A program made the position numbers and the translations under genes. From positions 1-43,389 of IMG/VR virus record IMGVR_UViG_2778261064_000026: a stretch of 43,389 nt of DNA. The stretch is one strand, 5' to 3'. Below are positions 2,569 through 43,389 of this stretch, piece by piece; position 1 is the stretch's first letter, and every line of letters starts with the position of its first letter. The notes below the pieces were generated by a model. It worked only from the letters and a program-made list of their open reading frames with translations. It was not told where the DNA came from and did no database searches. The stretch is from a virus (Duplodnaviria > Heunggongvirae > Uroviricota > Caudoviricetes).

Positions 2569-2604
2569 GCGGCCTAAATCGACGTATAACGAGCTAAAAC
2601 AGTT

Positions 2605-2636
2605 AAGGGGTACAGATGTACCCCTTTTTAATTTAA
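2605..2636. terminator. bidirectional terminator between convergent genes
   Basis: aaggggtacagatgtacccctt hairpin with flanking A and T runs. Confidence 0.55.
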
Positions 2637-2641
2637 TTGCG

Positions 2642-3817: not shown

Positions 3818-3876
3818 AGTAGTTTCCTCTAAAATAATAAGCTCACTACTATTTATTAGAGAAAATTGTCTTACTA

Positions 3877-3904
3877 TTGCATTCTCTATCTGGATGTGTA
3901 CAAT
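3877..3904 (+). promoter_or_regulatory. sigma70-like promoter (TTGCAT, 16-nt spacer, TACAAT) for the 3971 gene
   Basis: hexamers read directly from sequence. Confidence 0.3.
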
Positions 3905-3970
3905 ACGCGACCCTAAATCCCAAACCAACCATATTGAGGTTATGCCTATAAGTTAAAAAGTGAGGTCTAT

Positions 3971-4540: not shown

Positions 4541-6030
4541 TGCAAGATATTAAAATTCATTTTCAAGATTACAGTTTCGTTAAGGTTGATTGCTCTCCTT
4601 CTATCGGAATGGAATTAAGAGATTATTTCTCGTTTGAGGTTGAAGGGGCTAGGTTTAGCCCCCGCTACAAGTATTCCGGCTGGGATGGACGAATAAGACT
4701 GTTTACGCATGAAAATATCCTACCAATTGGACTATTAAAAACGTTGGGTGTCTTCGTTAAAAATATGGGCTATTCAGTCTGGATTGACCCGCGATTGCTT
4801 GAGAAGGAAGATGTAACCAAAGACGCGATTAATGAATGGATTGATTCCCTAGAAGTGTATTCCGGTTCCAATAAAATCAATCCTTACTGGTATCAAAGGG
4901 AGGCAGTCTTTCAGGGTATCCATAATCGCCGTAGAATGCTGGTTCTTCCTACCAGTGCCGGAAAGTCATTGATTGCTTGTATGCTGTCTCGTTGGTACTT
5001 AGAGAACTACACCGGAAAGATTCTAATCATTGTCCCGACTACATCGCTGGTGGTTCAAATGAGGGATGATTTTGTTGATTATCGGTTATTCCCTTATGAA
5101 GCAATCCATACAATGATGAGTGGTAGCGGGAAACATCCGGGAGACAGGTTAATCACGGTTAGTACCTGGCAATCAGCTTGCAAGATGCCTCCTGAATGGT
5201 TCAAACAATATGGAATGTTGATAGTTGATGAATCGCATAAGGCTAGTGCCAAAAATATTACCAATATCATTAACGGAATGAATCATTGCCAGTTTAAGAT
5301 CGGTATGACTGGTTCCCCGAAAGAATCAAAGTGCCATTTAATGCAATACGTCGGTATGTTCGGTGATATTTCTAAGATCGTGAGTATTGACCGCCTGATG
5401 GAAGAAGGGCAGGTGACAAAACTGAAAATTAACTGTCTTTTCCTTCGTTATACCGATGAGGAATGTAGCGCGGTTAAGGGGCGAGAATATGCGGAAGAGA
5501 TCAAGTACATCACTTCGCACGGGAGACGAAATAAGTTTGTGTGTAATTTGGCGCTAAAACTCGCTAAGAAGAACGAAAACGTATTTCTGATGTTCCGTAA
5601 CACTAAACACGGAAAACTTATGTATGACGCGTTACAGAAGGTACATGATAAGGTTTATTACATTGATGGTGGAGTTAAGACAGAAGAACGTGATGAATTT
5701 AAGAAAATGGCGGAGGGTGACACCGGGATCATTTGTGTTGCGTCTTATGGTGTGTTCTCTACTGGTGTTTCAATTAAGAACTTGCACCATGTCATTTTCG
5801 GTCATCCGGTGAAAGAATCAACTATCGTTCGTCAGAGTATTGGCCGTGCATTGCGTAAACATGGTTCTAAGGATATTGCGACCGTCTGGGATCTTATCGA
5901 TCATCTGTGTATATTCGGTCGTAACGGAAAAGTCAAGCATAAAAATTATGCGGTAAAACATGCACTTGAGAGAATCCGCTATTATCTAACCGACAAGTTC
6001 AGCTATGCAACTAAAACAATTGCTATATAA
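4540..6030 (+). CDS. SF2 DNA helicase, UvsW-like (recombination/repair helicase), 496 aa from ATG 4540
   Basis: Walker A LPTSAGKS, DExH box IVDESHKAS, motif VI QSIGRALRKHG; N-terminal domain and motif order resemble my recollection of T4 UvsW. Confidence 0.7.
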   Translation: MQDIKIHFQDYSFVKVDCSPSIGMELRDYFSFEVEGARFSPRYKYSGWDGRIRLFTHENILPIGLLKTLGVFVKNMGYSVWIDPRLLEKEDVTKDAINEWIDSLEVYSGSNKINPYWYQREAVFQGIHNRRRMLVLPTSAGKSLIACMLSRWYLENYTGKILIIVPTTSLVVQMRDDFVDYRLFPYEAIHTMMSGSGKHPGDRLITVSTWQSACKMPPEWFKQYGMLIVDESHKASAKNITNIINGMNHCQFKIGMTGSPKESKCHLMQYVGMFGDISKIVSIDRLMEEGQVTKLKINCLFLRYTDEECSAVKGREYAEEIKYITSHGRRNKFVCNLALKLAKKNENVFLMFRNTKHGKLMYDALQKVHDKVYYIDGGVKTEERDEFKKMAEGDTGIICVASYGVFSTGVSIKNLHHVIFGHPVKESTIVRQSIGRALRKHGSKDIATVWDLIDHLCIFGRNGKVKHKNYAVKHALERIRYYLTDKFSYATKTIAI

Positions 6031-18104: not shown

Positions 18105-21100
18105 TCATTTACAGGATTTAATAGCCGCAAGTTCAGCTTTAACAGCTTTCAACTCTTCGTTCATCGCATCATACTTAGTCGTTAATTCCTGAAAGGCTTT
18201 CACGAAAAGAGCATTGATACTAGAAACAGAAATAGTTTTAATTTCTCCTGGATTTTCGGTATCTCCATCGCTGCAAACGTGCACAGCTTCCGGCATAACT
18301 TTTTCCACATCTTGAGCAATGACACCTAATTCGCGTCCAACCACTGTATCATCAGAAAGTGATTTAACTTTATCGTAGGAATATACGGTTAAGCTGTTTA
18401 ATTTATCCAGCGCACCTTCTTCCAATTCTTCCTTGTTGATCTTAAGACGTTCATCAGATCGAATATGCACATCGTTAAAGCTACCGTTACCCGGCGTGTA
18501 AAAGAACCCATCGTGATGGAACTCAAATACAGCTTGAGGGTGTCCGTTATCAGGTGAGTTTTCCGCAGATCCAACACGAATAATTGCTTGTCCCCAATTG
18601 TTAGGGATACGACGCATACCAAAATCGACGGCAGTTGTATACCCTTGATTGGTGATTAAACTTCTTGCTTTAACAATCGGATAATAACAGTCTTGTCCAA
18701 CATAGCCATGATCGACGAATATTGGCGCTTCCACTCGCCACTGATTACCCCAATCACCTGGTTGACTAGCGGTCCAACGTTCACCATGAACATATAATCG
18801 AGCGTTATTAACATGAACCATTTCGACGCCTTTTGGACTTAATGCAATATCCCCAGCGTTCGTAAGATTTATCGCGGCATTAGTAGCATAGCTATAGAAC
18901 GCTAATCCATTATCACCACCGCCTTTACCAATATACCAGTTGTTGTTGTCAGCACACGTACCCAACAAATATACAGACGAATCACCACTTTCGGCATTCA
19001 TGATAATTGCATCAGATCCACGATTAATTTTCATTTTCCCGAAGAAGGTGTTTTTAATGGTATTATCCCATAGACGTTCAAATTCGGCTAAAAATCCTTT
19101 TGAGTCACGAAGACTTAAAACGTTATTTCGACCTGTATTGCTTGCTCCCCAATGGACGAGTTCCATATAGTCCATAGATTGACGAGAACCAGCTTTAAAG
19201 AAAAGATTGTCCTCAAGACGAGTGCTACCATCAATTCCAAGATGCAAACACCGAGCGGTTGCAGTACCACCTAAATACAATCCACCGTCCGCAAAATCAT
19301 AGCTGAATGGTCTGCGATTATTCCAACTACCAAAAGAATCTTTTAAATCGGTAGTAAGAATATGGAAGCTAGAACCATCATTGCGTAACATCAAACCATA
19401 GTTACCGCCTTTGACAGCCAAACGAGCATTTTCAGATAATGCAACTTCGCTATTCATTACAATTTTCTGGCCTTTACCACCAGTAATATGTAATTCACCA
19501 TCTTCAATCAGGTTTATCGAGTTTTGACCGTTATCGTTCCACCAAATAAAATCTTTGGTTGTTCCATCACCAAAACCAAACCAGCCATTACGAACATCTT
19601 GACCAGTGCGATAATCCATAAAATTAAAATGGCTTGATTCGTTTGGTCCTCGACGAATATCAATACCAGAATTTCCAGTAACACCGCCATCCAATGTTAA
19701 TTTCTTGACATGTAACCCGGATGTTACTGTCAGCAATAATTCCTGATTTGTATCTTCGTATCCAGTAGCAAGACGATATGCGTTATCATCAACTGTCTCA
19801 TGCCAGATTGTAGCTGGTGCACAACTACGGAAGCGACGCAACATCTTTTTAGCATTTGTCGGTTGTTCGTTTAAATGCTCAATGTCGTATTGGCCTTGAT
19901 GGTTTCCAGCAAAATTTAATGTCCCACGGTTGCTAAAGTTATTAAACGATGAAATGTTAAGAGCATCAAAAATTTCATCTGCAACAGGTTTTTCACCGCC
20001 CAGGTATTCAGGAGTATCCAACAGGTTTAAAGAAACACCACCGGAAGAAACTTGATATTCTGCTAAAACAAATCCTGTATGTGCACCATAGTAAGCGTAA
20101 AGATCGTAATTATCACCATCGGTAGGAATTGCACAAAAATGTTGTTCGTAATACCAAATAGTATAATACGCATTGAATACAACACCTTTCGGGCTATTGT
20201 TGCCGCAACGGATCACCAGTTCAATAACATTGGCTTGTCCATTCTGTCCGACGTTATAACCGTTACCACCCACTAAACGGATCTTAGCCGTACGACCGTG
20301 TTGTTGTGGCATTGTCAAAGTGCCTAGTTTAAACCAACCGCCCTCGATCCCAAAATTAAGCGTCTTCTGGAAAAGTCGGTCAATTTCTGCTTTCGAATAT
20401 GCGCCAATTTCAGCCGGAGTAGGTTTATCACCTTCGTGATACATGCGGTGAGAATATGCTAAATGACCCAATTCATCATAGCCGTATGTTCTTACCGTAG
20501 CATGTGGATTAGACCCATAAGTGAACTCAAAACCACGAGCATGATTAACACCGGATGGATGGGGAACATGCAACGCTAAAGCAATATGACCAGCTAGATC
20601 ATTCATGCGGAATGCACCAAAGTAATCAAGATTACGAGCATTTGGATCATCAAAATAGTTTGCGGTCTTAGACAGCAAATAACCATCAGTGTAAGTGTTT
20701 ACGTGTTTTTTGATGTACTTACCGTCACTCGATCCGTCGGCTGCATCAATACGGCTTTCTAAGCGTGCCAATTCAGAATCAGTGTAAGACTTGTTATTGT
20801 CAACTTTGCTATGAATTGCTGAATTTTTGGCTTCAACATCACGGGTTAATGCTGCGACGTTATCCGCTGCCTCTTGCTTGTTTGCTGCAATAACACTATT
20901 AAGGCTATCGCGCGTAGCGGTTAGCTGATTTTCCGCATAAATTTTATTTGCTGCGATAGTGCGATCAGTCTCGGCCTTAATCAAATCAACTTTGTCATTG
21001 ATAGCTTTATCATTGCTTGCGATGGTTGCATCAGTACGGGATTTAATATCATCAACTTTTTTATTGATGCGGGTGTCCAGTTCCTGAGTTGCTACAGCAG

Positions 21101-21533
21101 CCGCATTTTTATTAGCGGTGATGGTATCGGACAATTCAGATTTAACACCAGCAAGATCGGAAGCAGCTTTATTTTTATTGGCTTCGATTGTCGCGTCGGT
21201 TTCGCGTTTAATTGTATCAACTTTATTGTTAATTTCTGCGTGATTGTTGGCAATAGTAGAATCGGTAGTTCGTTTAATTTCGTCTACTTTAGCGTGAATA
21301 TTGCGGTCGTTTACTGCAATTGTGCTATCTAATTCTTGTTTGTTAGCATCAACTTTAGATTCTAATGCCGCATGAGTTTCAGGAGAAACAGAGATTTGAA
21401 CTACTTCATGATCTCGGTCTTTGGTAAAAATAACATGGTCTTTAAGGTTGATTGCTACCTCACCGACCTGTAATTGTTCCGGCGTTGGCTTTTTGCCAGA
21501 AACATTAGTTCGTTTAAATTGGATTGATTGCAT
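18105..21533 (-). CDS. side tail fiber protein with C-terminal intramolecular chaperone auto-processing domain (peptidase S74-like), 1142 aa
   Basis: N-terminal coiled-coil repeats (VDEIKRTTDSTIA / VDTIKRETDATIEA / VDDIKSRTDATIA / VDLIKAETDRTIA); C-terminal HIRSDERLK plus about 117 aa typical of self-cleaving chaperone domains. Confidence 0.8.
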   Translation of the reverse strand: MQSIQFKRTNVSGKKPTPEQLQVGEVAINLKDHVIFTKDRDHEVVQISVSPETHAALESKVDANKQELDSTIAVNDRNIHAKVDEIKRTTDSTIANNHAEINNKVDTIKRETDATIEANKNKAASDLAGVKSELSDTITANKNAAAVATQELDTRINKKVDDIKSRTDATIASNDKAINDKVDLIKAETDRTIAANKIYAENQLTATRDSLNSVIAANKQEAADNVAALTRDVEAKNSAIHSKVDNNKSYTDSELARLESRIDAADGSSDGKYIKKHVNTYTDGYLLSKTANYFDDPNARNLDYFGAFRMNDLAGHIALALHVPHPSGVNHARGFEFTYGSNPHATVRTYGYDELGHLAYSHRMYHEGDKPTPAEIGAYSKAEIDRLFQKTLNFGIEGGWFKLGTLTMPQQHGRTAKIRLVGGNGYNVGQNGQANVIELVIRCGNNSPKGVVFNAYYTIWYYEQHFCAIPTDGDNYDLYAYYGAHTGFVLAEYQVSSGGVSLNLLDTPEYLGGEKPVADEIFDALNISSFNNFSNRGTLNFAGNHQGQYDIEHLNEQPTNAKKMLRRFRSCAPATIWHETVDDNAYRLATGYEDTNQELLLTVTSGLHVKKLTLDGGVTGNSGIDIRRGPNESSHFNFMDYRTGQDVRNGWFGFGDGTTKDFIWWNDNGQNSINLIEDGELHITGGKGQKIVMNSEVALSENARLAVKGGNYGLMLRNDGSSFHILTTDLKDSFGSWNNRRPFSYDFADGGLYLGGTATARCLHLGIDGSTRLEDNLFFKAGSRQSMDYMELVHWGASNTGRNNVLSLRDSKGFLAEFERLWDNTIKNTFFGKMKINRGSDAIIMNAESGDSSVYLLGTCADNNNWYIGKGGGDNGLAFYSYATNAAINLTNAGDIALSPKGVEMVHVNNARLYVHGERWTASQPGDWGNQWRVEAPIFVDHGYVGQDCYYPIVKARSLITNQGYTTAVDFGMRRIPNNWGQAIIRVGSAENSPDNGHPQAVFEFHHDGFFYTPGNGSFNDVHIRSDERLKINKEELEEGALDKLNSLTVYSYDKVKSLSDDTVVGRELGVIAQDVEKVMPEAVHVCSDGDTENPGEIKTISVSSINALFVKAFQELTTKYDAMNEELKAVKAELAAIKSCK

Positions 21534-21606: not shown

Positions 21607-22440
21607 TCAGTATTCCCCGAAGTCGATCCGGTCATGGATAGAAACGGCTTCAATCTCGGCTGGCGTCGGTTTTTCTTCTGTGGAATACACTTTCACCCAT
21701 CCAGAATTACCATCTTTCTGGACTGTGCGAACTCGTAAACGTGGTGCGCCGGAAGCGGTGCATGTTAGCTGCCAACCACCATCTTCATTAGGTTGAACGT
21801 GAATTAGTGAAGTATCAGCACTAAATGGGTTAGATGCGCTCGATCCCTGATAGGTTACGAAACGGTTTCCGGCTAATGCTTCGCTATCAATCGGACCCGT
21901 GAATGGATTTACACCAGCACCCAAACCAAAATCACCCTGACGTAAGATCCGGCCTTCGGTAGCAATACCGCGATCTAGAATCCCGCCATCAGGATCTAAT
22001 TTAAATTCGATGGTAGTAACTTTGTTATCGCTACCACGGGTTTTATGTGACGAGACATAAGCGTCAAAGATGACGTAGTAACCTGTGTTAGCAGCACTGT
22101 AACCAGAGTTCACAACATAGAACATACGAAAGCGTAAAGGAGTTTTATCATTCACCGCTTTCATCAACATGTCTTGATGTTCGTCATCCAGAACACGGTT
22201 TACTACTAACGTAGTTGATTCAAGTTTACGATAGCCAGCAAGTTTACCCGTAGCGTCCTGATCATACTCTTCTAACGTCTGGATCTCTGTGGATTCGGTT
22301 ATCGTCGGGAATGCTGCGATGTTCTCGATAGGACTAAATGCAGGATCGAAAAAGTCCGGCTGGTTATCCACCATAGTAGACACGGAGACTTCAACATGCG
22401 ACCCCGTGAAAATGTCTAAGTTATCTTGTGTAATATTCAT
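21607..22440 (-). CDS. virion structural protein, 277 aa, with fiber-type KPTPAEI motif
   Basis: position between connectors and fiber; C-terminal EEKPTPAEIEAVS also present in the fiber (DKPTPAEIGAYS). Confidence 0.4.
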   Translation of the reverse strand: MNITQDNLDIFTGSHVEVSVSTMVDNQPDFFDPAFSPIENIAAFPTITESTEIQTLEEYDQDATGKLAGYRKLESTTLVVNRVLDDEHQDMLMKAVNDKTPLRFRMFYVVNSGYSAANTGYYVIFDAYVSSHKTRGSDNKVTTIEFKLDPDGGILDRGIATEGRILRQGDFGLGAGVNPFTGPIDSEALAGNRFVTYQGSSASNPFSADTSLIHVQPNEDGGWQLTCTASGAPRLRVRTVQKDGNSGWVKVYSTEEKPTPAEIEAVSIHDRIDFGEY

Positions 22441-22449
22441 TATTACCCC

Positions 22450-22878
22450 TTAAAAACGCGCTAGATAAGAAAATTTAAGGCTAAGTGTCCCAACGATACC
22501 CCCATCACTAGAATCATCGTCATAATCGGTATTAGAAGCTACTGGAGTGATATCTGAAATAGAGAAGCCCAAATCTTTAAATCGTGGGTTATCCGGCTGA
22601 ATCTGGATTATCTGGCAAATACCCTCATGAATTTTCGTTTCATGAATCTGAGAATATAATTGCATTTCGATAACGCATTCAGCTTGCATTGCATTACCAC
22701 CACGGACCCTAGTGTAAGTCTCATTCATTCCGGTAATCCAACACACCACGTCATCGCTAAAACCAGTTTGAGTTTGTTCTACGTTTAAAGCCAGACCTAG
22801 ATCTTGTTCGATAATATCCTGTAAAGCACGTTTAATCTTAAGACGTGGCATATTATTAACGGTAGCGAGCATGTGCAC
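22450..22878 (-). CDS. head-tail connector/completion protein, 142 aa
   Basis: size and position after capsid gene. Confidence 0.35.
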   Translation of the reverse strand: MHMLATVNNMPRLKIKRALQDIIEQDLGLALNVEQTQTGFSDDVVCWITGMNETYTRVRGGNAMQAECVIEMQLYSQIHETKIHEGICQIIQIQPDNPRFKDLGFSISDITPVASNTDYDDDSSDGGIVGTLSLKFSYLARF

Positions 22879-23176: not shown

Positions 23177-23204
23177 CAAAAAAGCCCCACCGTTAGGCAG
23201 GGCT
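23177..23204 (-). terminator. partial terminator after capsid gene
   Basis: agcccc...gggct hairpin with minus-strand U6 tract directly after the stop. Confidence 0.45.
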
Positions 23205-23296
23205 AATTATTATTTTGCTTTCGGTGGACGACCCACTTTTTTAGCTGTGGCTTTCGCCGTAACTACCGGAATTTCTTCCGGTAATTCTTCGTTATT

Positions 23297-25306
23297 TCAT
23301 TCAGCGGAGATGTGAAGAACTTTCAGAGCTTCCGGCTGAGTAACAACATAATCCAGATCTACCCAGATACGCGGAACGATAGCAGACTGTGCACGGTAGG
23401 TAGTGTCGTCCATATCCAGTTCCAGACCGCCCCACTCACCGATAGTGATGCCGGAGAAGTCACCCAGAACGATGTGATCTGCCGGAATAACACCAGAAGT
23501 AACTACTTCGTAACCAGCCAGTTTGCCGTTTTCGATAATATAACCGGAAACGCCGTTATCTTTCAGGGTAGATTCCAGTTCGGCAGCGGTTGCACCGCTC
23601 ATCGCAAACTTGATCGCCTGAGCAGGAACGCCAGCGTCGGTCAGTTTAGCAATTTCTTTCAGGAAATCTTTGTAAGAGAAAGCAGCTTTCTTCTCAACGC
23701 GACCACCGTCTACCAGTTGTTTAACCAGACCAGCCGGACCACGAGCATTTTCTTTGTCAGACAGAATCAGTTGTTCCAGTTTGATACGAACAGCTTTGTT
23801 AATGTGGTCAGTGATCAGGGTAGCGATACCCGGAACGGTTTTCAGAGACTGACGGCTAATCGGGTTGCCACCAGCGAAAGTCTTAGGAGACAGTTTCACG
23901 TTCGCAAATTCAGCTTTGCTTTCCGGCGCAGCACCGTTTTCATCAACGAAGCCGAAAGCATCAACGCTGGATTTAGTCATTTTTGGAATAGCGGTCGGAG
24001 CATTCAAGCCACTGTAAACAGTCACACCCAGACGACCCAGAACAGATTCCGGCATCAGCATTTCGATGTAGGATTCAGTCATCAGTTTTTCGTCGGTGAT
24101 AGCAGTCAGATCGGCTTTGGTGTTACCAGCAGCAGCAGCACGCATAGCAGCAGCCGGAACGAATACAGAGCCACCACGAGCAGCACGACCACGCTGCATA
24201 GTTGCAGTAGCAGCCATTGCAGAAAACTCGGCTTCGTTAGCACCCAGAGCTTCACCATCTACCAGAGAGCGAATTACGTTGTTCAGGTCAAAAGTTTTTT
24301 CCATTTTAGAGTCCTTAATTTGTTCGTTATTACGTTGAGCATTGGTAATGTTATTTAGTGCCTTAGTGCGGAATGCTTCCGGCGTCATTTCTTTATTTGC
24401 CAATGCGCGTTTCAATTCTTCGTCATCAATATTTAGTTCGCGTGCAATTTCGCGAATTTCTAATTCGTCTTCTTCGGAACGTTCAGCCACTTCCTCGATT
24501 TTTTCTTCTTCAACCGGAGCAGCTTCACGTTCTTCTTTTATTTCTTCTGCTTCCCGAACAGTTGAACTATCATCATCAACACTTTCAGGATGTTCAGCGT
24601 CTTTTCCGTCTTCGAGATTTTCATTTTCTTCATTCTCTTCAACTTGGCGCTCTTGAGTTTCTTCTACTTCCGATTCTTTATTTTCTTCTACCGGAGTTTC
24701 TTCAACCTGAGCGACTTCTTTTTCTTCTTCGTCTTTAACTTGTTCGATTTGTTCTTTAGTCATATCGCGTTTCGCCTCCAAATTAACTGTGATAGTATTT
24801 AGAGAGCGATTTAAACCGACCGAATCGTCCGCTGGCACCGTGACCCACGAAATTTCGTGAGGAATCCATTTAGAAACAATGAGTTGCGATTTAGCGTAGT
24901 CGATGTGATACTCTTTAATGTCATAGCCGACCGATATTTTTTCCATCGTACCTTCAATGACTTTATTACGAATATCATTAGCCAAAGTCCCATGCTTGGA
25001 GAATTTAACCAGAGCACGACCTACGTTATCCGCATCGATTCGAGCGTTACAAACAACACCAATGTGATTATCGAAATTATGATTGAACAGCAACGGAGCG
25101 TTATTATTCAGACGAGACAGATCAACCGCTTCCGGTGTATGTACCAGAATTTCATCTAATACCACCATTTCTTGATTTTGCTCATCCCAGAATTGGCGCT
25201 GGTAAGGCTGGGTACTTGAGAAAGCAATTTCAAATTCGTATTGATCGTTATGCCCTTCGTTAATAACTCCACCGTAACCGTTAAGATCGCGGCGAAATTT
25301 AAGCAT
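23297..25306 (-). CDS. fused prohead protease (HK97/S78-like), acidic scaffold-like linker and HK97-fold major capsid protein, 669 aa
   Basis: N-terminal PLLFNHNFDNHIG and ISVGY protease-type motifs; central E/D-rich low-complexity region; C-terminal about 330 aa capsid-like; host-optimal codon usage. Confidence 0.7.
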   Translation of the reverse strand: MLKFRRDLNGYGGVINEGHNDQYEFEIAFSSTQPYQRQFWDEQNQEMVVLDEILVHTPEAVDLSRLNNNAPLLFNHNFDNHIGVVCNARIDADNVGRALVKFSKHGTLANDIRNKVIEGTMEKISVGYDIKEYHIDYAKSQLIVSKWIPHEISWVTVPADDSVGLNRSLNTITVNLEAKRDMTKEQIEQVKDEEEKEVAQVEETPVEENKESEVEETQERQVEENEENENLEDGKDAEHPESVDDDSSTVREAEEIKEEREAAPVEEEKIEEVAERSEEDELEIREIARELNIDDEELKRALANKEMTPEAFRTKALNNITNAQRNNEQIKDSKMEKTFDLNNVIRSLVDGEALGANEAEFSAMAATATMQRGRAARGGSVFVPAAAMRAAAAGNTKADLTAITDEKLMTESYIEMLMPESVLGRLGVTVYSGLNAPTAIPKMTKSSVDAFGFVDENGAAPESKAEFANVKLSPKTFAGGNPISRQSLKTVPGIATLITDHINKAVRIKLEQLILSDKENARGPAGLVKQLVDGGRVEKKAAFSYKDFLKEIAKLTDAGVPAQAIKFAMSGATAAELESTLKDNGVSGYIIENGKLAGYEVVTSGVIPADHIVLGDFSGITIGEWGGLELDMDDTTYRAQSAIVPRIWVDLDYVVTQPEALKVLHISAE

Positions 25307-25351
25307 TTAATCACCTTTAATTAATTGGGGGCATTGCGCCCCCGTTGGTTA

Positions 25352-36746: not shown

Positions 36747-37187
<441 letters not shown>

Positions 37188-37226
37188 TCAATTCCCGCCA
37201 AGGATAGCAGGAAACCTGATGCTTTA

Positions 37227-38204
<978 letters not shown>

Positions 38205-38335
38205 TTATCGTTATGATCTACAAAGGCCACCAGCATAACAAATCCGTGGTCGGTGGCAAAAAAAGCAGATTTCGCTTATTAAAACTGCATATTGATTGAA
38301 GTTTGAATAAACGCGCGATTTTTTTAAAAAGTTTG

Positions 38336-38364
38336 TTGACCTCAGGTCATGATTTCCCTAAATT
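38336..38364 (+). promoter_or_regulatory. tRNA promoter (TTGACC, 17 nt, TAAATT, GC-rich discriminator)
   Basis: read directly from sequence upstream of serX. Confidence 0.45.
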
Positions 38365-38398
38365 AGCGCCCGTTCCAGCAAGACAGGAACGACAATTT

Positions 38399-38486
38399 GG
38401 TGAGGTGTCCGAGTGGCTGAAGGAGCACGCCTGGAAAGTGTGTATACGGCAACGTATCGGGGGTTCGAATCCCCCCCTCACCGCCA
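38399..38486 (+). tRNA. serX: tRNA-Ser (anticodon GGA)
   Basis: GGTGAGGTGTCCGAGTGGCTGAAGGAGCACGCCTGGAAAGTGTG...GGTTCGAATCCCCCCCTCACCGCCA with long variable arm and encoded CCA; ghrA neighbour. Confidence 0.9.
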
Positions 38487-38492
38487 GATTAT

Positions 38493-38530
38493 AAGCGCAT
38501 GTTATTGTTTAACATGCGCTTTTTTATTTT
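38493..38530 (+). terminator. rho-independent terminator of serX
   Basis: aagcgcatgttattgtttaacatgcgctt plus ttttttatttt. Confidence 0.7.
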
Positions 38531-38635
38531 CCCTTCCAGACAGTATGCCATCGGGTATGCCATCTGAAACCGGTTTATATGCCCCGCGATCATATCTTAT
38601 CGGACAATTTCCGATCTTTGAGCATACTGGCAAAG

Positions 38636-39478
38636 CTATACTGCCAGCATATCAGGATAGTGTTTTGCGATAATATCATTCAGTCTGTCAACCAGTTCTG
38701 GTTTTCTGAACGTGATATGCGCGGAGCCCTTCTTAAAGTATCTGATGCTGAACATCTCATCTTCATAGCTCTCTTTACCCTGAACAGACTGAATGTGATC
38801 ATCCAGACGAAGGGTGATGTTTCCCCGGTTGTCGGGGATTGGTTTACCGCTGAACAGGTGCAACATTCTTTCCAGATCGGCGAGTCGGTCAGCCTGTTGT
38901 CCGGTGATAAGATGAAATCCCCACCGGTCCCATCTCACCAGATTGTTGACGATAATTTTACTGCCAAATTTACAGGGGCAATTGGTTTTGTAATTCCAGT
39001 TCAGCCCTCTGAAGACGTTGATCACCCCTCGCTCAAACACCTCATCCTTATTCTGGTGCAGTTGTTCAAATGTGCTCAGAATGTTCGCTTCGCTGATTTC
39101 CGGAAAATTATCGTACTCCAGTGACCGGTACCATGTATCACGGGCCTGCGTATCCATTAATGACAGCATCCCGGAACGTTGCATCAGGTCACGCCAGATT
39201 TCGCGATCAAGATTCCGGGTAATGGCTTTCATTGCTGTTTCGGGTTTCTCCATCAGCCAGCAGCCGCAGCGAAAATCCTGTTTCATGGCCCAGTCCGGGG
39301 CAGTTTTACCTCCGATGCTTTCCGTCAGCACCGAGATTTCAGCCAGTTGTCGGATAAGTGTGTCGATTTGCAACAGTGTACTCTTTCGTACAGCCAGAAT
39401 GTGGCGAATGCTGGTTGAGCAGATAACGTCCGTATGCCCGTTGACCACTTCCGGACGGGAGATTGTGATATCTGACAT
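38636..39478 (-). CDS. DUF4942-type island protein, 280 aa
   Basis: recollection of conserved gene set of CP4-type E. coli islands; position beside toxin-antitoxin module. Confidence 0.45.
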   Translation of the reverse strand: MSDITISRPEVVNGHTDVICSTSIRHILAVRKSTLLQIDTLIRQLAEISVLTESIGGKTAPDWAMKQDFRCGCWLMEKPETAMKAITRNLDREIWRDLMQRSGMLSLMDTQARDTWYRSLEYDNFPEISEANILSTFEQLHQNKDEVFERGVINVFRGLNWNYKTNCPCKFGSKIIVNNLVRWDRWGFHLITGQQADRLADLERMLHLFSGKPIPDNRGNITLRLDDHIQSVQGKESYEDEMFSIRYFKKGSAHITFRKPELVDRLNDIIAKHYPDMLAV

Positions 39479-39562
39479 AATCGATATTCCTTTTTGCAGA
39501 TAAATGAAAACGCCAGCCCTGTGCAGGCTGGCGTCAGAGGAATGAAGTCTGGTGAGTGAGCT

Positions 39563-39760
39563 TCACCGGTTCTGGTGCAGAAGCTGCAGATGACGCAGGG
39601 TACGGACATCCTCCCGGGCCTGTTCGATACAGGGCAACAGTGCTGCTGAATCCGTTTTATCCTCATCGTTGTCAAAGATAATTCCCGATCCGCAGTCGAT
39701 ATTGTCCTGCAGCCACGCAATCAGAATATCCAGCGCTGTTTCCGTGGTTAATGATTTCAT
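39563..39760 (-). CDS. small island protein (DUF957-like), about 65 aa from MKSL
   Basis: ORF track (39563..39805) trimmed to internal ATG to avoid overlap; conserved neighbourhood. Confidence 0.3.
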   Translation of the reverse strand: MKSLTTETALDILIAWLQDNIDCGSGIIFDNDEDKTDSAALLPCIEQAREDVRTLRHLQLLHQNR

Positions 39761-39771
39761 GTTGTTCCTGG

Positions 39772-40263
39772 TTACCAGTCGAAAGTGGGTAAACCCGGCA
39801 GGCATTCAGCGCTGGCATCCAGATGAATGAGACTGACGCCATAACGCCGGATGAGTGTGACGACCAGACGACGGAACGTTTTTGACAGCCCCAGGCGTTT
39901 AAGCCGCAGAACCGGGTATGACCACGCATCGGTACGTAACAGATATCCGCTACCTGTAAAATGAATCCATTCTGATTCACCGAAGTCACTGGTCTGGTGT
40001 GACAGCGAGTACAACCAGGCGTTGTCCGTTTCCGTGATATGTGCGGTACTGCAGCGTATGCCGGTAAGGGTAGCAAATGGTGGCGTGCATTCTGCTGAGG
40101 TCTGGTCAGATTCATCAACAACACGAAGGGAGTAGCCGTTATCGCAGACCATGTTAATCAGTTCAGCGAGCTCAATACCATCGACGTCAACGACAATGCG
40201 CCCCATGTTCAGTGCCTGTACGTTAACGCTGTCGGCTTCCAGTGTCAGGGCCAGTTTCATCAT
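39772..40263 (-). CDS. YeeW-like/DUF5983-type protein, 163 aa
   Basis: gene directly downstream of cbtA-family toxin, as in CP4-type islands. Confidence 0.4.
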
Positions 40264-40634
40264 TTCGCCTCCGGATACTTACCCAGGGTAATGTTATTTA
40301 CCGTTCTGTAATTGTCGCGGGTCATCAGGCCGGTCGCCCGGCGAGCCCGGAGGATATCAATACTGTTTATTAACTGAGAGCGGGGACAGGTGCTGAATCC
40401 CGGCTGGTCGGTACGCACCAGCGCGTATTTTTCCACGAGAAAATTAACTGCATCACACAGTGAAATGCCTGCCTCAATATGCTGCTCAATCACACGTTCA
40501 TCGGCAAACGGTGTGTCATTCAGTGTGAGGCCATAATGCTGGTCCAGCAGTCGGATGAGCAGTGTCTGCCAGATGGTGACGGGAGACGGGCAGCGAGATA
40601 CCTCCCGTACATGTGTGTCGGATAATGTTTTCAT
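40260..40634 (-). CDS. cbtA: type IV toxin, CbtA/YeeV/YkfI family, 124 aa
   Basis: [59 protein letters not shown]... matches CbtA-family sequence as I recall it; track ORF extends to 40736. Confidence 0.8.
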
Positions 40635-40680
40635 CTTAAGTTCTCTGTAACTGGTAGTGCTAAAGGTGAGAGCTTCGGGG

Positions 40681-41055
40681 TTATGAGGTGGTTGCGGGTG
40701 CTGGTGTCGGATAAACAGCCAGATAAACGTAACCACAGGAGCCGAGGGTGTCGGCTTCGCAGGTCAGCCCTTTTGCATTCAGCGTGACGGTATGCTGATA
40801 TCGGGGATTCAGTTCACCGCTGGTGAGCATGAGTTCCAGTTGTTTCATCAGCAGCGGAAAGGCCTGGTCCAGATGGTATGCATCTGCGTCGCTGAAGCGG
40901 CCTCTGATACCGGCGCGGTCGGCAAGGTAATGCAGGCGGTTACCCTCTTGCACCAGACGAGCGCCAAAACAGGGCCTCACTGTGCAGGGAAGCCCCCACC
41001 AGGGGCGGTCGTGATTGTCATCGGGATGAGTTATCCCGGAGAGTTTGTCTGACAC
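40681..41055 (-). CDS. cbeA: type IV antitoxin, CbeA/YeeU/YafW family, 124 aa
   Basis: [51 protein letters not shown] matches YeeU-family; upstream of toxin. Confidence 0.8.
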
Positions 41056-41217
41056 GATAAAATCCTCTCTGAAAAGTGGTTAAGAATGGTTTAACGATGA
41101 CAGGTCAGCCGGCGCGCTGACCGGTTTCGGTGAAGATGTATGCATTGATGAGAATGGCCTCATCCACAGCGGCGTCTGAGGTCATCTGGTCGTACTCGTT
41201 TCCCGGGTGACGGAACA

Positions 41218-41439
41218 TCAGTTCAGGGTGACACTCATCAGCCGGACATACGGGCCAAAACTGTCCTTACGGCGTTCTGCAAACACGGCAAGAACGCCGG
41301 GAATATCCTGCACTTCACGACCAGTATACGCTTCAGCACTGCCGTGCCAGCGATACTTACCGGTACAGAACGGAAAAAGACGGGATGCAGGATGCTGTTG
41401 GTGAATACGCATGGCTTCACCACGGGTGATGATTCTCAT
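41218..41439 (-). CDS. YeeT-like (DUF987) protein, 73 aa
   Basis: MRIITRGEAMRIHQQHPASRLFPFCTGKYRWHGSAEAY... matches K-12 YeeT family as I recall it. Confidence 0.6.
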   Translation of the reverse strand: MRIITRGEAMRIHQQHPASRLFPFCTGKYRWHGSAEAYTGREVQDIPGVLAVFAERRKDSFGPYVRLMSVTLN

Positions 41440-41502
41440 GATGTGATACCTCTGAAGACAGAAGATAAAAGTGAAAACAGGTGTGATGTTGGTTGTGACG
41501 GG

Positions 41503-41994
41503 TTAAAGCAGACCATGTTCGGCAAAGGAGAAAACCTGGTTGCCACCGACTATCAGATGGTCCGGCACCCGGATATCCACCAGGCCCAGTGCCTGTACCA
41601 GACGTTCGGTGATAAGCCGGTCTGCCTTACTGGGTGTGACTTCACCGGACGGGTGATTGTGCGCCAGCACCACGGCAGCGGCATTGTGGTACAGGGCGCG
41701 TTTAATCACTTCCCGGGGATGAACTTCCGTACGGTTGATGGTGCCGGTGAAGAGGGTTTCACCGGCAATCAGCTGATTCTGGTTGTTCAGATACAGCACC
41801 CGGAACTCTTCCCGCTCCAGTCCCGCCATGTTCAGAATCAGCCATTCCCGTGCCGCACGGGTGGAGGTGAAGGCCACGCCGGGTTCATGAAGATGGCGGT
41901 CCAGGGTTTGCAGGGCCCGCAGAATGAGACTGCGCTCGCCGGGCGTCATCTCTCCGGGCAGAAAGGAAAGCTGCTGCATTGTCCCTGCCTCCAT
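41503..41994 (-). CDS. RadC-like JAB-domain protein (YeeS/YkfG/YfjY family), 163 aa
   Basis: HNHPSGEVTPSKADRLIT motif typical of RadC/JAMM fold. Confidence 0.75.
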   Translation of the reverse strand: MEAGTMQQLSFLPGEMTPGERSLILRALQTLDRHLHEPGVAFTSTRAAREWLILNMAGLEREEFRVLYLNNQNQLIAGETLFTGTINRTEVHPREVIKRALYHNAAAVVLAHNHPSGEVTPSKADRLITERLVQALGLVDIRVPDHLIVGGNQVFSFAEHGLL

Positions 41995-42480
41995 TCAGTC
42001 AATGATGCGCATAATGGCGCTGCATTCCGGATGCTGCAGGGCGTAATCCCGCAGCCGGTAATAGTGGACCGTCATGGCATAACACTCCGTACGACAGGCA
42101 TGATGACTGTACGTCATCAGACAGGCAGCAATACCGGCGGCTTCCGGGCTCATTTCAGCGCGGTTGCCGTTCATGGCATTGAACAGTACCCATGTTTCGT
42201 CATCATCGTCATCCGGTTCGGGTGCCATAAATGCCCCGCCGTTGTTCAGGGTGTACAGATTCCAGATACCACCGCAGTAGTCTTCGCAAAGACGGTCCAT
42301 CCAGCCGAAGACACGGGGCTCCAGGGTCACCCACTGTGGAATGAGGCCAAAATGCTGCGGCCAGAAGCTGATGCGCTGTTCATCAGGGACGGGAGTGGCA
42401 ACCAGCTGAGGTGGGTTATTCCCTGATGCAGTGGTTACGGAAACAGAAGGTGTGGTGGAATTATGCGAAACGGTTGTCAT
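41995..42480 (-). CDS. antirestriction protein, KlcA/ArdB-like (YfjX family), 161 aa
   Basis: conserved island gene order; acidic DDDDDE patch; family recognised from K-12 paralogs. Confidence 0.65.
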   Translation of the reverse strand: MTTVSHNSTTPSVSVTTASGNNPPQLVATPVPDEQRISFWPQHFGLIPQWVTLEPRVFGWMDRLCEDYCGGIWNLYTLNNGGAFMAPEPDDDDDETWVLFNAMNGNRAEMSPEAAGIAACLMTYSHHACRTECYAMTVHYYRLRDYALQHPECSAIMRIID

Positions 42481-42570
42481 GAGGTTATTCCTTATAAAAA
42501 GTAAATGAATGGAAGAAGCCCCGGGGCAGGAACAGATGTGAGTCAGGACTGCACTTTCAGTGAAACGGCA

Positions 42571-43389
42571 TCAGCGCATGCTCTCCAGCAGCGTTTCTGC
42601 CATCACCCACAATGCGCGATTGAGCTTAATGTCGGTATCAATGCTGTGAATGGCCCGGGTATGGATACGTTTTCCTTTTGCACTGCGACCGGAAATCCCG
42701 CCTTTCAGCATATTCTCCTGGATGGTCTGATAAGCACTCCACAGGTCCTTACCGTAATCCTCCCGGCGTCGTGGTGTCAGAATGTCGGCGGTGGTGACGG
42801 GCTGATGTTCGTCACCATAACGGTAAGTCAGTGCCGCCTGTGCCAGCGCCTGGCGTGCCGGTGGCGGCAGGACCAGCGACTGCATGGCATCACGCTTCTC
42901 CTCTATCCGGTCAAAAACGCCCACCACCTCGTAAGCCCCTTCAATGACTCTGTCCACCACATTTCCCCGGTGTGGAACACGCAATTCTCCCAGAGACTGA
43001 CCGCAGACCAGTCCATTGGTACAAATGGCACGAAAATATCCGGGTAACATCTGGTAGCTGGATGAACCGTCATGGGAGTTGAGCAGAATAATTTCAGGGA
43101 CATGCTGACCGGTTATCTGTCCGGCCCGCCGCAGACGCAGCATGTGTTTTGTGTATTCCCGGCGGCTCTGGTCGCGCACGCGGGTCTGGCAGGCAAAGAA
43201 CGGCTGAAAGCCTTCCTGCTGCAGATTTTCCAGGACGGTGATAGTGGGAATGTACGCATAGTGTTCACTGCGAGAGGTATGTCGGTTTTCCCCAAAAATA
43301 CTCGGTACATGGCGCATCAGTTCTTCGTGTGTCAGCGGACGATCACGACGTATCTGGTTCGCATAACCAAAACGACTGGCTAATCTCAT
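42571..43389 (-). CDS. DUF932-type island protein (YfjQ/YafZ family), 272 aa; ATG at window edge
   Basis: conserved position upstream of antirestriction/RadC genes. Confidence 0.55.
   Translation of the reverse strand: MRLASRFGYANQIRRDRPLTHEELMRHVPSIFGENRHTSRSEHYAYIPTITVLENLQQEGFQPFFACQTRVRDQSRREYTKHMLRLRRAGQITGQHVPEIILLNSHDGSSSYQMLPGYFRAICTNGLVCGQSLGELRVPHRGNVVDRVIEGAYEVVGVFDRIEEKRDAMQSLVLPPPARQALAQAALTYRYGDEHQPVTTADILTPRRREDYGKDLWSAYQTIQENMLKGGISGRSAKGKRIHTRAIHSIDTDIKLNRALWVMAETLLESMR

What the first reader, a model, noticed from the sequence alone, without database searches (positions are those of the whole stretch)
23297..25306. Single 669-aa ORF fusing prohead protease, scaffold-like acidic linker and capsid protein
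An HK97-type protease signature (PLLFNHNFDNHIG and ISVGY) sits at the N-terminus, a long E/D-rich low-complexity linker in the middle and an HK97-fold-like capsid domain at the C-terminus, all in one frame, followed by a partial terminator. Protease and capsid are usually separate genes. The fusion implies autoproteolytic release of the capsid domain during maturation.
Basis: partly seen in the sequence, partly recalled or inferred. Interest (0 to 1): 0.45.

Follow-up and report, generated by a model that had tools for sequence, protein, structure and literature searches.

The report
Fused protease–scaffold–capsid prophage gene
One E. coli prophage gene encodes the head-maturation protease, an acidic spacer, a helical scaffold-like domain and the HK97-type capsid protein as a single chain; this is real but already known and very common, with two unproven extras (a likely second internal start and a possibly leaky stop codon).

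Summary
Window 23297-25306 (minus strand) is an intact 669-aa ORF. It has an S78/HK97-type prohead protease domain (aa 21-168), a disordered acidic linker (169-277), a helical scaffold-like domain (278-~399) and an HK97-fold capsid domain (~400-669). A strong terminator follows. It is not a frameshift artefact: hundreds of independent assemblies carry the same ORF, all four segments are under purifying selection, and 80/80 related viral contigs have both domains in one frame.

PAJU2 ORF003 is annotated as a "prohead protease fused capsid protein". NCBIfam, PHROGs and SEA-PHAGES all have categories for this fusion. The solved R4C capsid (8gta) contains only the last 268 aa of a 629-aa homologue.

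Two extras were found, both inferred only:
- An in-frame ATG with GGAGG sits at codon 182, exactly at the protease/linker boundary. The pattern recurs in 22/41 and 11/18 dereplicated clusters of two family branches. It suggests a nested protease-less product, as in lambda C/Nu3.
- In this E. coli lineage only, the TGA stop is followed by a conserved in-frame 28-44-codon open stretch ending in TAA-TAA. This may be read-through.

The finding as submitted is ordinary.

The parts
23297..25306 (-). Complete ORF: 669-aa (73.9 kDa) protease-linker-scaffold-capsid polyprotein, including the TGA stop at 23297-23299
   Evidence: RefSeq annotates the same ORF as one CDS, 'phage major capsid (family) protein'.
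25312..25317 (-). Ribosome-binding site AAGGTG, 5 nt upstream of the annotated ATG (25304-25306)
   Evidence: Read directly from the sequence. Duplex dG is -4.3 kcal/mol.
24803..25246 (-). Prohead serine protease domain (aa 21-168). Catalytic-candidate codons: H76 = 25079-25081, S125 = 24932-24934, E151 = 24854-24856.
   Evidence: Pfam PF04586 E 9.6e-10. H76/S125/E151 are the only invariant columns in 146 homologues. They align to HK97 gp4 H65/S114/E141. AF2 pLDDT is >90. PGAP names an IS1-separated N-terminal fragment 'HK97 family phage prohead protease'.
24761..24779 (-). Candidate internal translation start: GGAGG (24775-24779), an 11-nt spacer, then in-frame ATG = codon M182 (24761-24763). 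It would give a 488-aa, 53.2-kDa protease-less product.
   Evidence: Duplex dG is -9.3 kcal/mol, against -4.3 for the annotated start. Conserved in all 14 close copies. A boundary ATG with SD recurs in 22/41 and 11/18 dereplicated clusters and in R4C and PAJU2. Inferred; no product has been shown.
24476..24802 (-). Disordered acidic linker (aa 169-277)
   Evidence: pLDDT <50 over aa 169-182 and 200-272. 39% D+E and net charge -30 here; the family median is 55 aa with 26% D+E. pN/pS 0.26.
24110..24475 (-). Helical scaffold-like ('delta-like') domain (aa 278-399)
   Evidence: AF2 helices 278-290, 295-303, 309-330, 341-350, 356-371 and 385-392 with pLDDT about 80-97. The length is conserved in the family (median 130 aa). 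This region is absent from the mature R4C capsid chain.
23300..24109 (-). Predicted mature HK97-fold major capsid protein (aa ~400-669, about 28.8 kDa). The N-terminus is uncertain within aa 400-405.
23213..23296 (-). In-frame open stretch after the TGA stop (28 codons: NNEELPEEIPVVTAKATAKKVGRPPKAK), closed by tandem TAA TAA at 23207-23212. Candidate read-through extension.
   Evidence: Across 14 copies and 10 haplotypes, frame 0 is never interrupted and the indels are 48, 6 and 3 nt. Translation has not been shown.
23261..23286 (-). 11-bp RNA hairpin starting 10 nt after the UGA
   Evidence: the post-stop region folds at -27.5 kcal/mol, z = -4.8. The long variant has a different hairpin, z = -3.9. 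No Rfam match.
23183..23204 (-). Intrinsic terminator (9-bp stem, 6 G-C pairs, loop TAAC, followed by TTTTTG)
   Evidence: Conserved in all compared copies.

Best explanation
This is the head-assembly gene of a lambda-order siphovirus-like E. coli prophage. The gene order is TerL gpA-type, a small protein, a lambda-type portal, this gene, then a terminator. It replaces the separate protease, scaffold and capsid genes with one polyprotein: S78/HK97-type serine protease (aa 21-168), disordered acidic linker (169-277), helical scaffold-like domain (278-~399) and HK97-fold capsid domain (~400-669).

Shown here:
- the domain identities;
- an invariant His/Ser/Glu triad in register with HK97 gp4;
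- purifying selection over the whole ORF;
- conservation of the fused frame in all relatives examined.

Inferred:
- The capsid domains assemble the procapsid shell on the portal, with the N-terminal parts facing inward.
- The tethered proteases cut away about 399 N-terminal residues, leaving a capsid protein of about 29 kDa that expands on DNA packaging. The only solved homologue (R4C) shows just that C-terminal part.
- With about 0.55 probability, a second translation start at M182 (GGAGG + ATG) also makes a 53-kDa protease-less linker-scaffold-capsid chain. Protease dosage and internal crowding would then be set by the ratio of two ribosome-binding sites, in the manner of lambda C/Nu3, Mu I/Z and herpesvirus UL26/UL26.5.
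For: Domains.

Catalytic residues: H76/S125/E151 are invariant in 146 sequences and aligned to HK97 gp4 H65/S114/E141.

Capsid fold.

Model architecture.

Real single gene:
- identical or near-identical 660-671-aa proteins in >100 listed clusters from E. coli, Salmonella and E. albertii;
- 44 complete E. coli genomes with >=80% coverage;
- a single CDS in RefSeq;
- pN/pS 0.11, 0.26, 0.22 and 0.15 for protease, linker, middle and capsid segments;
- 80/80 IMG/VR loci with both domains in one stop-free frame.

No other protease or scaffold gene in the window.

Processing: R4C gp6 is a 629-aa full-length homologue (E 6e-47) whose deposited capsid chain is residues 362-629.

Nested start:
- GGAGG, -9.3 kcal/mol;
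- the same feature in DCP80, VP882 and phiHAP-1;
- Met enriched 2-3 fold at +8..+23 aa after the protease;
- 65% of boundary ATGs have an SD, against 18%, 11% and 10% in three controls (Fisher p 6e-9 to 1e-14), equal to the genuine gene starts at 56%;
- R4C GGAGG and PAJU2 AGGAGG;
- in the independent PAJU2 branch, 11/18 clusters, p about 1e-7.

Crowding estimate: 415 full-length N-terminal parts would fill about 51% of a T=7 prohead interior, against 28% for the nested product (assuming T=7 and a 22-nm inner radius).
Against: - No protein-level data exist for this prophage. Cleavage, the cleavage site and protease activity are all inferred.
- The protease fold was not confirmed by structure search.
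- TIGR01543 scores below its curated cutoff (33 vs 59 bits), as does NF045541 (122 vs 525).
- The hhalign match to HK97 gp4 is weak (E 7.5e-4, probability 25%).
- The 8gta chain start may be the first modelled residue rather than a measured N-terminus. The R4C paper does not discuss processing.
- For the nested start: the 11-nt spacing after GGAGG is longer than optimal, about 30-45% of clusters have no boundary ATG, and out-of-frame ATGs in the same region also show elevated SD-likeness (39%, p = 0.048 only).
Confidence: 0.85

Rival explanations
1. Sequencing or assembly error: a frameshift or a lost stop codon has artificially merged a protease gene with a capsid gene.
For: In HK97, the reference system, protease and capsid are separate adjacent genes.
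Against: The same intact ORF occurs in hundreds of independent assemblies, including complete genomes. All segments are under purifying selection. 80/80 plus 80 further related viral contigs have a fused frame. A single PHROG profile covers the protein end to end.
Confidence: 0.01
2. The gene makes a single product. Every capsid subunit is made with its own protease, and the SD-like motif plus ATG at codon 182 is not used for initiation. It would be a compositional by-product of Glu/Gly/Arg codons, a translational pause site, or an evolutionary relic.
For: 30-45% of family clusters lack a boundary ATG yet keep the fusion, so a nested start is not obligatory. Spacing in this window is 11 nt. 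The boundary region is generally SD-rich (control C 39%). A prohead interior could physically hold 415 full N-terminal parts (about 51% occupancy).
Against: SD-likeness of boundary in-frame ATGs equals that of true gene starts and is 3.5-6.5 times that of three control sets after dereplication. It recurs with different peptide contexts and different SD sequences in lineages at 23-45% identity. In-frame ATGs are about twice as frequent per frame as out-of-frame ones there (34 vs 31 in two frames). The site is at the catalytic-domain end, not where a gp4|gp5-type gene junction would lie, so it is unlikely to be a fusion relic.
Confidence: 0.4
3. The N-terminal domain is a degenerate, inactive protease relic that now serves only as scaffold mass. 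Maturation would use a host protease or no cleavage at all.
For: The curated equivalog cutoff of TIGR01543 is not reached. Activity is untested.
Against: His, Ser and Glu are the only residues invariant across 146 sequences at 25-93% identity. pN/pS for this domain is the lowest in the gene (0.11). The Pfam gathering score is exceeded. No other protease is present in the prophage.
Confidence: 0.04
4. On the post-stop region: it is an untranslated structured 3' UTR (mRNA stabiliser or processing site ahead of the terminator). Its open frame would be coincidence or a by-product of module exchange, not read-through.
For: The region folds significantly better than shuffles (z -4.8 and -3.9). Substitutions show no third-position bias (275/313/304) and crude pN/pS is 0.39. 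UGA-A is not the leakiest context (own knowledge). More distant relatives end in TAA with no extension. No database protein contains the peptide.
Against: Frame 0 is stop-free in all 10 haplotypes, while frames 1 and 2 carry 1-7 stops. Three separate indels are 48, 6 and 3 nt. TGA is fixed in all 14 copies, whereas 55 of 77 family stops are TAA. The frame ends in a conserved tandem TAA TAA. The replaced tail keeps its basic character (KKVGRPPKAK vs KKQRKTKE).
Confidence: 0.7

Closest known systems
Pseudomonas phage PAJU2 ORF003, 'prohead protease fused capsid protein' (UniProt P85500 'capsid polyprotein' as cited in PMC8306868)
   Same: 667 aa vs 669 aa. Same Pfam architecture: S78 at 22-156 and Phage_capsid at 405-660. 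Alignable over about 600 columns. Autocatalytic cleavage has already been proposed. It also has a strong SD + ATG after the protease (AGGAGG, M197).
   Different: Only 23% identity. In PAJU2 the gene lies between the terminase and portal genes rather than after the portal. Its linker is not strongly acidic. It shows no TGA-plus-extension feature.
Dinoroseobacter phage vB_DshS-R4C gp6 / capsid structure 8gta
   Same: Full-length homologue (26% identity, E 6e-47) with the same motifs PLLxxH, SVGY and EISxVxxPAD. It is the best sequence and fold match of the capsid domain. The deposited virion chain is only the C-terminal 268 aa of the 629-aa precursor. GGAGG + ATG at M189.
   Different: Shorter, non-acidic linker. 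Marine alphaproteobacterial host. The paper does not mention a protease or processing.
HK97 gp4 (protease) + gp5 (delta domain + capsid protein)
   Same: Same protease family, with catalytic His/Ser in register. Same capsid fold. An N-terminal helical scaffold-like domain precedes the capsid domain. A terminator follows the capsid gene.
   Different: HK97 has two genes, and its protease is recruited non-covalently. Here the protease is covalently tethered through a 109-aa acidic linker. HK97-type chainmail cross-linking residues were not examined here.
Nested in-frame protease/scaffold genes: lambda C/Nu3, Mu I/Z, herpesvirus UL26/UL26.5 (own knowledge)
   Same: A long product carries the protease. 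A shorter in-frame product from an internal start lacks it, and the ratio sets the protease dose. The candidate start here sits exactly at the catalytic-domain boundary.
   Different: In those systems the capsid protein is a separate gene; here the nested product would include the capsid protein itself. The internal initiation here is inferred from sequence only.
C-terminally extended minor capsid proteins made by recoding: Qbeta A1 (UGA read-through), T7 10B (-1 frameshift) (own knowledge)
   Same: A capsid gene ends in UGA, followed by an in-frame open stretch and a downstream RNA hairpin.
   Different: The extension is short (28-44 aa), fast-evolving and limited to one E. coli/Salmonella prophage clade. 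No product has been demonstrated.

Membership tests
Peptidase S78 / HK97-family prohead protease | Significant match to the family profile above the curated threshold | tested here: met
   Pfam PF04586: 39.3 bits vs cutoff 21, E 9.6e-10, aa 40-162.
Peptidase S78 / HK97-family prohead protease | Reaches the NCBIfam equivalog cutoff (TIGR01543 proheadase_HK97) | tested here: not met
   33.1 bits vs cutoff 59. The domain is a diverged member, so equivalog-level naming is not justified by this model alone.
Peptidase S78 / HK97-family prohead protease | Catalytic His and Ser conserved and in register with HK97 gp4 His65/Ser114 (the residue assignment is from my own knowledge of Duda et al. 2013; that paper is not held) | tested here: met
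   H76 and S125 are invariant in 146 homologues. hhalign places them on gp4 H65 and S114, and E151 on E141 (E 7.5e-4, a weak score).
Peptidase S78 / HK97-family prohead protease | Assemblin-like protease fold | tested here: inconclusive
   The AF2 domain model is confident (pLDDT >90, beta-rich with one helix).
Peptidase S78 / HK97-family prohead protease | Proteolytic activity on the capsid precursor | not testable with these tools
   Needs expression of wild type and S125A, with analysis of the products.
HK97-fold major capsid protein (Pfam PF05065) | Profile match above the curated threshold | tested here: met
   92.9 bits vs cutoff 24.2, aa 411-665.
HK97-fold major capsid protein (Pfam PF05065) | HK97 fold | tested here: met
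HK97-fold major capsid protein (Pfam PF05065) | Position in a head-morphogenesis module | tested here: met
   Directly downstream of a lambda-type portal and a gpA-type terminase, and upstream of head-tail and tail genes.
Prohead protease / major capsid protein fusion proteins (PAJU2-type capsid polyprotein; phrog_617/4523; NCBIfam NF045541; SEA-PHAGES 'major capsid and protease fusion') | Protease and capsid domains in one ORF, conserved in relatives | tested here: met
   phrog_617 aligns aa 23-664 to profile positions 26-621 of 626, E 8.7e-91. phrog_4523 'major head and protease protein' E 1e-36.
Prohead protease / major capsid protein fusion proteins (PAJU2-type capsid polyprotein; phrog_617/4523; NCBIfam NF045541; SEA-PHAGES 'major capsid and protease fusion') | Reaches the curated cutoff of NF045541 | tested here: not met
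   122.4 bits vs 525, with only aa 22-346 matched. That model is an 'exception'-type narrow model. This protein shares the architecture but is not a member of that specific subfamily.
Prohead protease / major capsid protein fusion proteins (PAJU2-type capsid polyprotein; phrog_617/4523; NCBIfam NF045541; SEA-PHAGES 'major capsid and protease fusion') | Mature virion contains only the C-terminal capsid part | not testable with these tools
   Indirect support only: the R4C homologue's deposited chain is residues 362-629 of 629.
Nested in-frame protease/scaffold expression (lambda C/Nu3 type) | In-frame internal start codon with a ribosome-binding site at the protease boundary | tested here: met
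   GGAGG-N11-ATG at codon 182, dG -9.3. Conserved in 14 close copies.
Nested in-frame protease/scaffold expression (lambda C/Nu3 type) | The feature is conserved beyond what composition explains | tested here: met
   65% vs 10-18% SD-positive after dereplication, p 6e-9 to 1e-14. The independent PAJU2 branch gives p about 1e-7. It is absent in about 30-45% of clusters.
Nested in-frame protease/scaffold expression (lambda C/Nu3 type) | A second polypeptide is actually made | not testable with these tools
   Needs N-terminal mapping or start-site ribosome profiling.
Programmed stop-codon read-through (Qbeta A1 type) | Conserved UGA followed by a conserved in-frame open stretch | tested here: met
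   14/14 copies have TGA, 10 haplotypes have no in-frame stop, and all indels are in phase. This holds only within one clade.
Programmed stop-codon read-through (Qbeta A1 type) | Protein-level purifying selection on the extension | tested here: inconclusive
   Crude pN/pS 0.39, but no third-position excess (275/313/304).
Programmed stop-codon read-through (Qbeta A1 type) | Extended product present | not testable with these tools
   Needs mass spectrometry of capsids.

The most novel reading that the evidence does not exclude
The gene may not be a simple polyprotein but a multi-output unit. (a) A conserved internal ribosome-binding site at the protease boundary (M182 here) makes a protease-less linker-scaffold-capsid chain alongside the full-length chain. 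This would be a family-wide way, not described in the literature I could search, of setting the protease:capsid ratio when protease, scaffold and capsid share one frame. (b) In this E. coli/Salmonella lineage, low-level UGA read-through adds a 28-44-aa acidic-then-basic tail to a few capsid subunits. The probability given is for (a). I put (b) at about 0.25, and both together at about 0.15.
Probability: 0.5. Interest if true: 0.5.

Novelty: already known. Interest (0 to 1): 0.25.

Why it matters
As submitted, the finding matters little. It correctly recognises a protease-scaffold-capsid polyprotein, but the arrangement is catalogued (PAJU2, PHROGs, NCBIfam, SEA-PHAGES), occurs in hundreds of sequence clusters, and this exact protein is already in RefSeq.

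Its practical value is for annotation. RefSeq labels the gene only 'phage major capsid protein', which hides the protease. The R4C structure paper likewise does not mention that its capsid protein is cut from a fused precursor.

The two side observations would matter more if confirmed:
- A conserved nested start would explain how fused systems avoid packing 415 proteases into each prohead. It would extend the lambda/Mu/herpesvirus nested-scaffold strategy to the capsid protein itself.
- A read-through capsid variant would be an unusual recoding event for a dsDNA phage.

Both can be tested directly with an inducible E. coli lysogen.

Tried and rejected
- Megablast of the locus against deposited phages found nothing. 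The element is known only as a prophage.
- The CBASS and Stx2-phage papers turned out to concern protease-scaffold fusions, not protease-capsid fusions.
- Xp10/Xop411 have separate protease and capsid genes, so they are not comparators.
- The search for related loci with the 146-sequence alignment failed because no stretch was conserved enough. The 5-sequence alignment worked.
- The PDB profile search with the protease domain gave only chance-level hits.
- Duda et al. 2013 could not be read, and a literature search for gp4 catalytic residues found nothing relevant.
- The genome-contig scan gave only 5 distant loci (33-41% identity), all with TAA stops and no extension. No relatives at intermediate divergence were found to date the TGA+extension feature.
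- The extension peptide has no match among 5.8 billion proteins.
- There is no Rfam family in the post-stop region.
- I considered selenocysteine insertion at the UGA and rejected it. The hairpin loop (GAAA) and geometry do not resemble the E. coli SECIS as I know it, and the feature sits in a phage structural gene.
- I considered an independent small gene in the post-stop region and rejected it. There is no start codon with an SD in the short variant.
- I considered the codon-182 start as a relic of a gp4|gp5-type gene junction and judged it unlikely. It lies at the end of the catalytic domain, about 95 aa before the helical domain.
Full report
OBSERVATION.

PLLFNHNFDNHIG lies at aa 71-83 and ISVGY at aa 124-128.

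Pfam gives Peptidase_S78 (aa 40-162, E 9.6e-10, above the gathering score) and Phage_capsid (aa 411-665, E 3e-26). One PHROG profile, phrog_617, covers aa 23-664 end to end (E 8.7e-91). phrog_4523 is literally named 'major head and protease protein'.

The segment aa 176-300 is 43% Asp+Glu with net charge -37.

A strong intrinsic terminator (9-bp stem, 6 G-C pairs, T-run) lies at 23204..23183, 93 nt past the stop. HK97 has an annotated terminator in the equivalent place.

NOT AN ARTEFACT.

The window is an E. coli prophage beside ghrA/ycdX and tRNA-Ser. Four lines of evidence show the fused ORF is real:
- The same 660-671-aa protein, with both Pfam domains, fills the first 120 database clusters from E. 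coli, Salmonella and E. albertii.
- 55 complete E. coli genomes carry the locus, 44 over at least 80% of its length. RefSeq annotates one CDS in every intact copy I opened. In one strain an IS1 splits it, and PGAP then names the N-terminal remnant 'HK97 family phage prohead protease'.
- Among seven copies at 89-99% nucleotide identity, pN/pS is 0.11 (protease), 0.26 (acidic linker), 0.22 (middle) and 0.15 (capsid), so the whole frame is translated and constrained.
- In 80 of 80 related IMG/VR contigs (25-100% identity), both domains lie in one stop-free frame. The 50%-identity library holds 367 clusters at E<1e-30, and almost all of the best 150 are 565-760 aa and match both halves.

ANATOMY.

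An AlphaFold2 model built on 146 diverse homologues has mean pLDDT 82. It shows:
- a confident beta-rich domain, aa 21-168;
- disorder at aa 169-182 and 200-272;
- a well-predicted helical domain, aa 278-~403;
- the capsid domain from about aa 410.

Across 146 homologues the only invariant residues are H76, S125 and E151. A profile of the N-terminal domain aligns to HK97 gp4 with H76 on His65, S125 on Ser114 and E151 on Glu141 (modest score). The assignment of His65 and Ser114 as the gp4 catalytic residues rests on my own knowledge, because the paper is not held.

The family plan is uniform: protease about 141 aa, linker 12-149 aa (median 55, 26% acidic), helical domain about 130 aa, capsid domain about 264 aa. 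This window has one of the longest and most acidic linkers.

No other protease or scaffold gene exists in the prophage. The gene order is gpA-type terminase, a 164-aa protein, a lambda-type portal, this gene, then head-tail and tail genes.

PROCESSING.

The best solved relative is the capsid of roseophage R4C (8gta_A, 268 residues). Its gene, vBDshSR4C_006, encodes 629 aa and aligns with the window protein end to end (E 6e-47), including the protease motifs. The deposited chain is residues 362-629.

A member of this fused family therefore has only the C-terminal part in its virion shell. The R4C paper never mentions a protease or cleavage, and the chain start may be a modelling limit rather than a measured N-terminus.

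R4C G362 maps to L400 in the family alignment and to D405 by BLASTP. This is next to the low-confidence hinge at aa 404-408 of the model. The predicted mature protein is thus about aa 400-669, or 28-29 kDa, with about 45 kDa removed.

ALREADY KNOWN.

- GenBank annotates PAJU2 ORF003 (667 aa) as 'prohead protease fused capsid protein'. It has the same Pfam architecture and aligns over about 600 columns.
- The Nocturne116 paper cites the PAJU2 'capsid polyprotein' (P85500) as a proposed case of fusion to the protease with autocatalytic cleavage (PMC8306868).
- Fused protease-capsid genes are described for Arthrobacter phage clusters AM, AU and AN and for Rhodococcus RRH1 (PMC5513430), and for Rhodobacter RcC phages, which are direct hits to this protein.
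- 'Major capsid and protease fusion' is a standing annotation term.
- NCBIfam holds NF045541, 'prohead protease/major capsid protein fusion protein', although this protein scores below its narrow cutoff.

A LIKELY SECOND START (inferred).

Codon 182 is an in-frame ATG preceded by GGAGG. The duplex energy is -9.3 kcal/mol, against -4.3 for the annotated start, with an 11-nt spacer. It lies in the disordered stretch immediately after the protease domain. It is conserved in all 14 close copies, with GGGGG in some.

The same arrangement appears in other lineages:
- DCP80, VP882 and phiHAP-1 at homologous positions;
- R4C (GGAGG, M189) and PAJU2 (AGGAGG, M197).

At protein level, Met is enriched 2-3 fold at +8..+23 residues after the conserved Arg that ends the protease.

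At DNA level, after dereplication to 41 clusters, 29 have a boundary ATG and 22 have one with an SD of -5.5 kcal/mol or stronger. The fraction of SD-positive sites compares as follows:
- boundary in-frame ATGs: 65%;
- non-ATG codons of the same region: 18%;
- other in-frame ATGs: 11%;
- the rest of the linker: 10%;
- genuine gene starts: 56%.
Fisher p values against the three controls run from 6e-9 to 1e-14.

An independent scan of the PAJU2 branch gives 11 of 18 clusters, typically AGGAGG 7-8 nt before a conserved MKT.AEQI (p about 1e-7).

Caveats: 30-45% of clusters lack the feature, the region is somewhat SD-rich in general (out-of-frame ATG control 39%), and the spacing here is long. I found no description of such internal initiation in the searchable literature.

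If it is used, the gene yields a 73.9-kDa protease-bearing chain and a 53.2-kDa protease-less chain. This is the logic of lambda C/Nu3, Mu I/Z and herpesvirus UL26/UL26.5. It would lower the internal load from about 51% to about 28% of a T=7 prohead interior (geometry assumed).

A POSSIBLE LEAKY STOP (weaker).

After the TGA, the same frame stays open for 28 codons (NNEELPEEIPVVTAKATAKKVGRPPKAK) and ends in TAA TAA just before the terminator.

For translation:
- In 14 copies with 10 nucleotide haplotypes, the stop is always TGA-A.
- Frame 0 never contains a stop, whereas frames 1 and 2 have 1-7.
- The three indels are 48, 6 and 3 nt.
- A replaced tail remains basic.
- The region is significantly structured, with a hairpin 10 nt after the UGA (z -4.8; a different hairpin in the long variant, z -3.9). 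It matches no Rfam family.

Against translation:
- There is no third-position bias in substitutions.
- More distant relatives end in TAA without an extension.
- The peptide occurs in no database protein.

I rate read-through at about 0.25. A structured untranslated 3' region is the more likely alternative.

VERDICT.

The thing itself is an ordinary, catalogued member of a very large family of protease-scaffold-capsid fusion genes, so novelty is 'already known' and interest is low. The nested start and the post-stop frame are leads that go beyond the finding and can be tested cheaply.

Noticed in passing
window 24761-24779 (- strand): GGAGG plus an in-frame ATG (codon 182) sits exactly at the protease/linker boundary. 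The same pattern recurs in about half of the family's clusters and in R4C and PAJU2. It suggests a nested protease-less product.
   Followed up: yes
window 23207-23299 (- strand): The TGA stop is followed by a conserved in-frame 28-codon open stretch (44 codons in some strains) ending in TAA TAA. All indels are in phase, and there is a hairpin 10 nt after the UGA. This is possible read-through, limited to the E. coli/Salmonella clade.
   Followed up: partly
window 25326-25344: A G+C-rich hairpin (CGGGGGCGCAATGCCCCC on the coding strand) with no T-run lies in the 45-nt gap between the portal stop and the fused gene's ribosome-binding site. It could be a processing or stability element. It is reported as terminator-like only on the opposite strand.
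   Followed up: no
window 18105-21533 (- strand): A 1142-aa fibre protein with a T4 gp34-like trimerisation domain and a C-terminal S74 intramolecular chaperone has long TIAxN.../KVDxIK repeats in its N-terminal third. It sits between the head-tail/major-tail-like genes and the tail tube gene, an unusual position for a fibre. It shares a KPTPAEI motif with the C-terminus of the neighbouring 277-aa protein (21607-22440).
   Followed up: no
window 22595-22685 (+ strand): ARAGORN calls a 91-nt tRNA-Glu(TTC) inside and antisense to a coding gene. Rfam does not support it at the gathering threshold, so it is probably a false positive.
   Followed up: partly
window 889-2568 and about 37000-43389: A large serine recombinase lies at one end of the element. 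At the other end G+C rises from about 0.42 to about 0.55 near 37 kb, with tRNA-Ser(GGA) at 38399-38486. In strain KSC64 the same prophage abuts ycdX/ghrA/tRNA-Ser. This is likely the attachment-site side.
   Followed up: partly
window 2642-3928 (-) and 3971-4540 (+): Two divergently arranged proteins carry CapR homology domains, one also with a MUG113/T5orf172-type domain. They lie next to a UvsW-like helicase (4531-6030) and may form a defence or anti-defence module.
   Followed up: no
L008 (PQ671644.1 Escherichia phage DCP80, 1-13786): This record is classified as a 141-kb Straboviridae (T4-like) phage, yet it begins with a lambda-order head module (gpA-type terminase, portal, fused protease-capsid gene 43% identical to this one). 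It may be a chimeric assembly. The 541-nt gap after its capsid gene holds an unannotated ORF of about 130 aa.
   Followed up: no
L007 (NZ_CP195866.1) and hit H62 (NZ_OW848980.1): IS1A and IS903B insertions interrupt this gene in some E. coli strains, so part of the prophage population is decaying.
   Followed up: no
L092 (MK882925.1, R4C) 1388-3277: The capsid gene of the structurally solved phage R4C encodes a 629-aa protease-capsid fusion, although the structure paper describes only a 'major capsid protein' and does not mention processing. Pfam does not detect its protease domain at E<=0.001, but BLASTP to the window protein aligns the catalytic motifs.
   Followed up: yes
L010 (phiHAP-1) 3313-3595: The 283-nt 'gap' after the phiHAP-1 capsid gene contains an unannotated ORF of about 70 aa (MATAKPSS...AAAAGDE) in another frame. 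It may be a small head protein.
   Followed up: no
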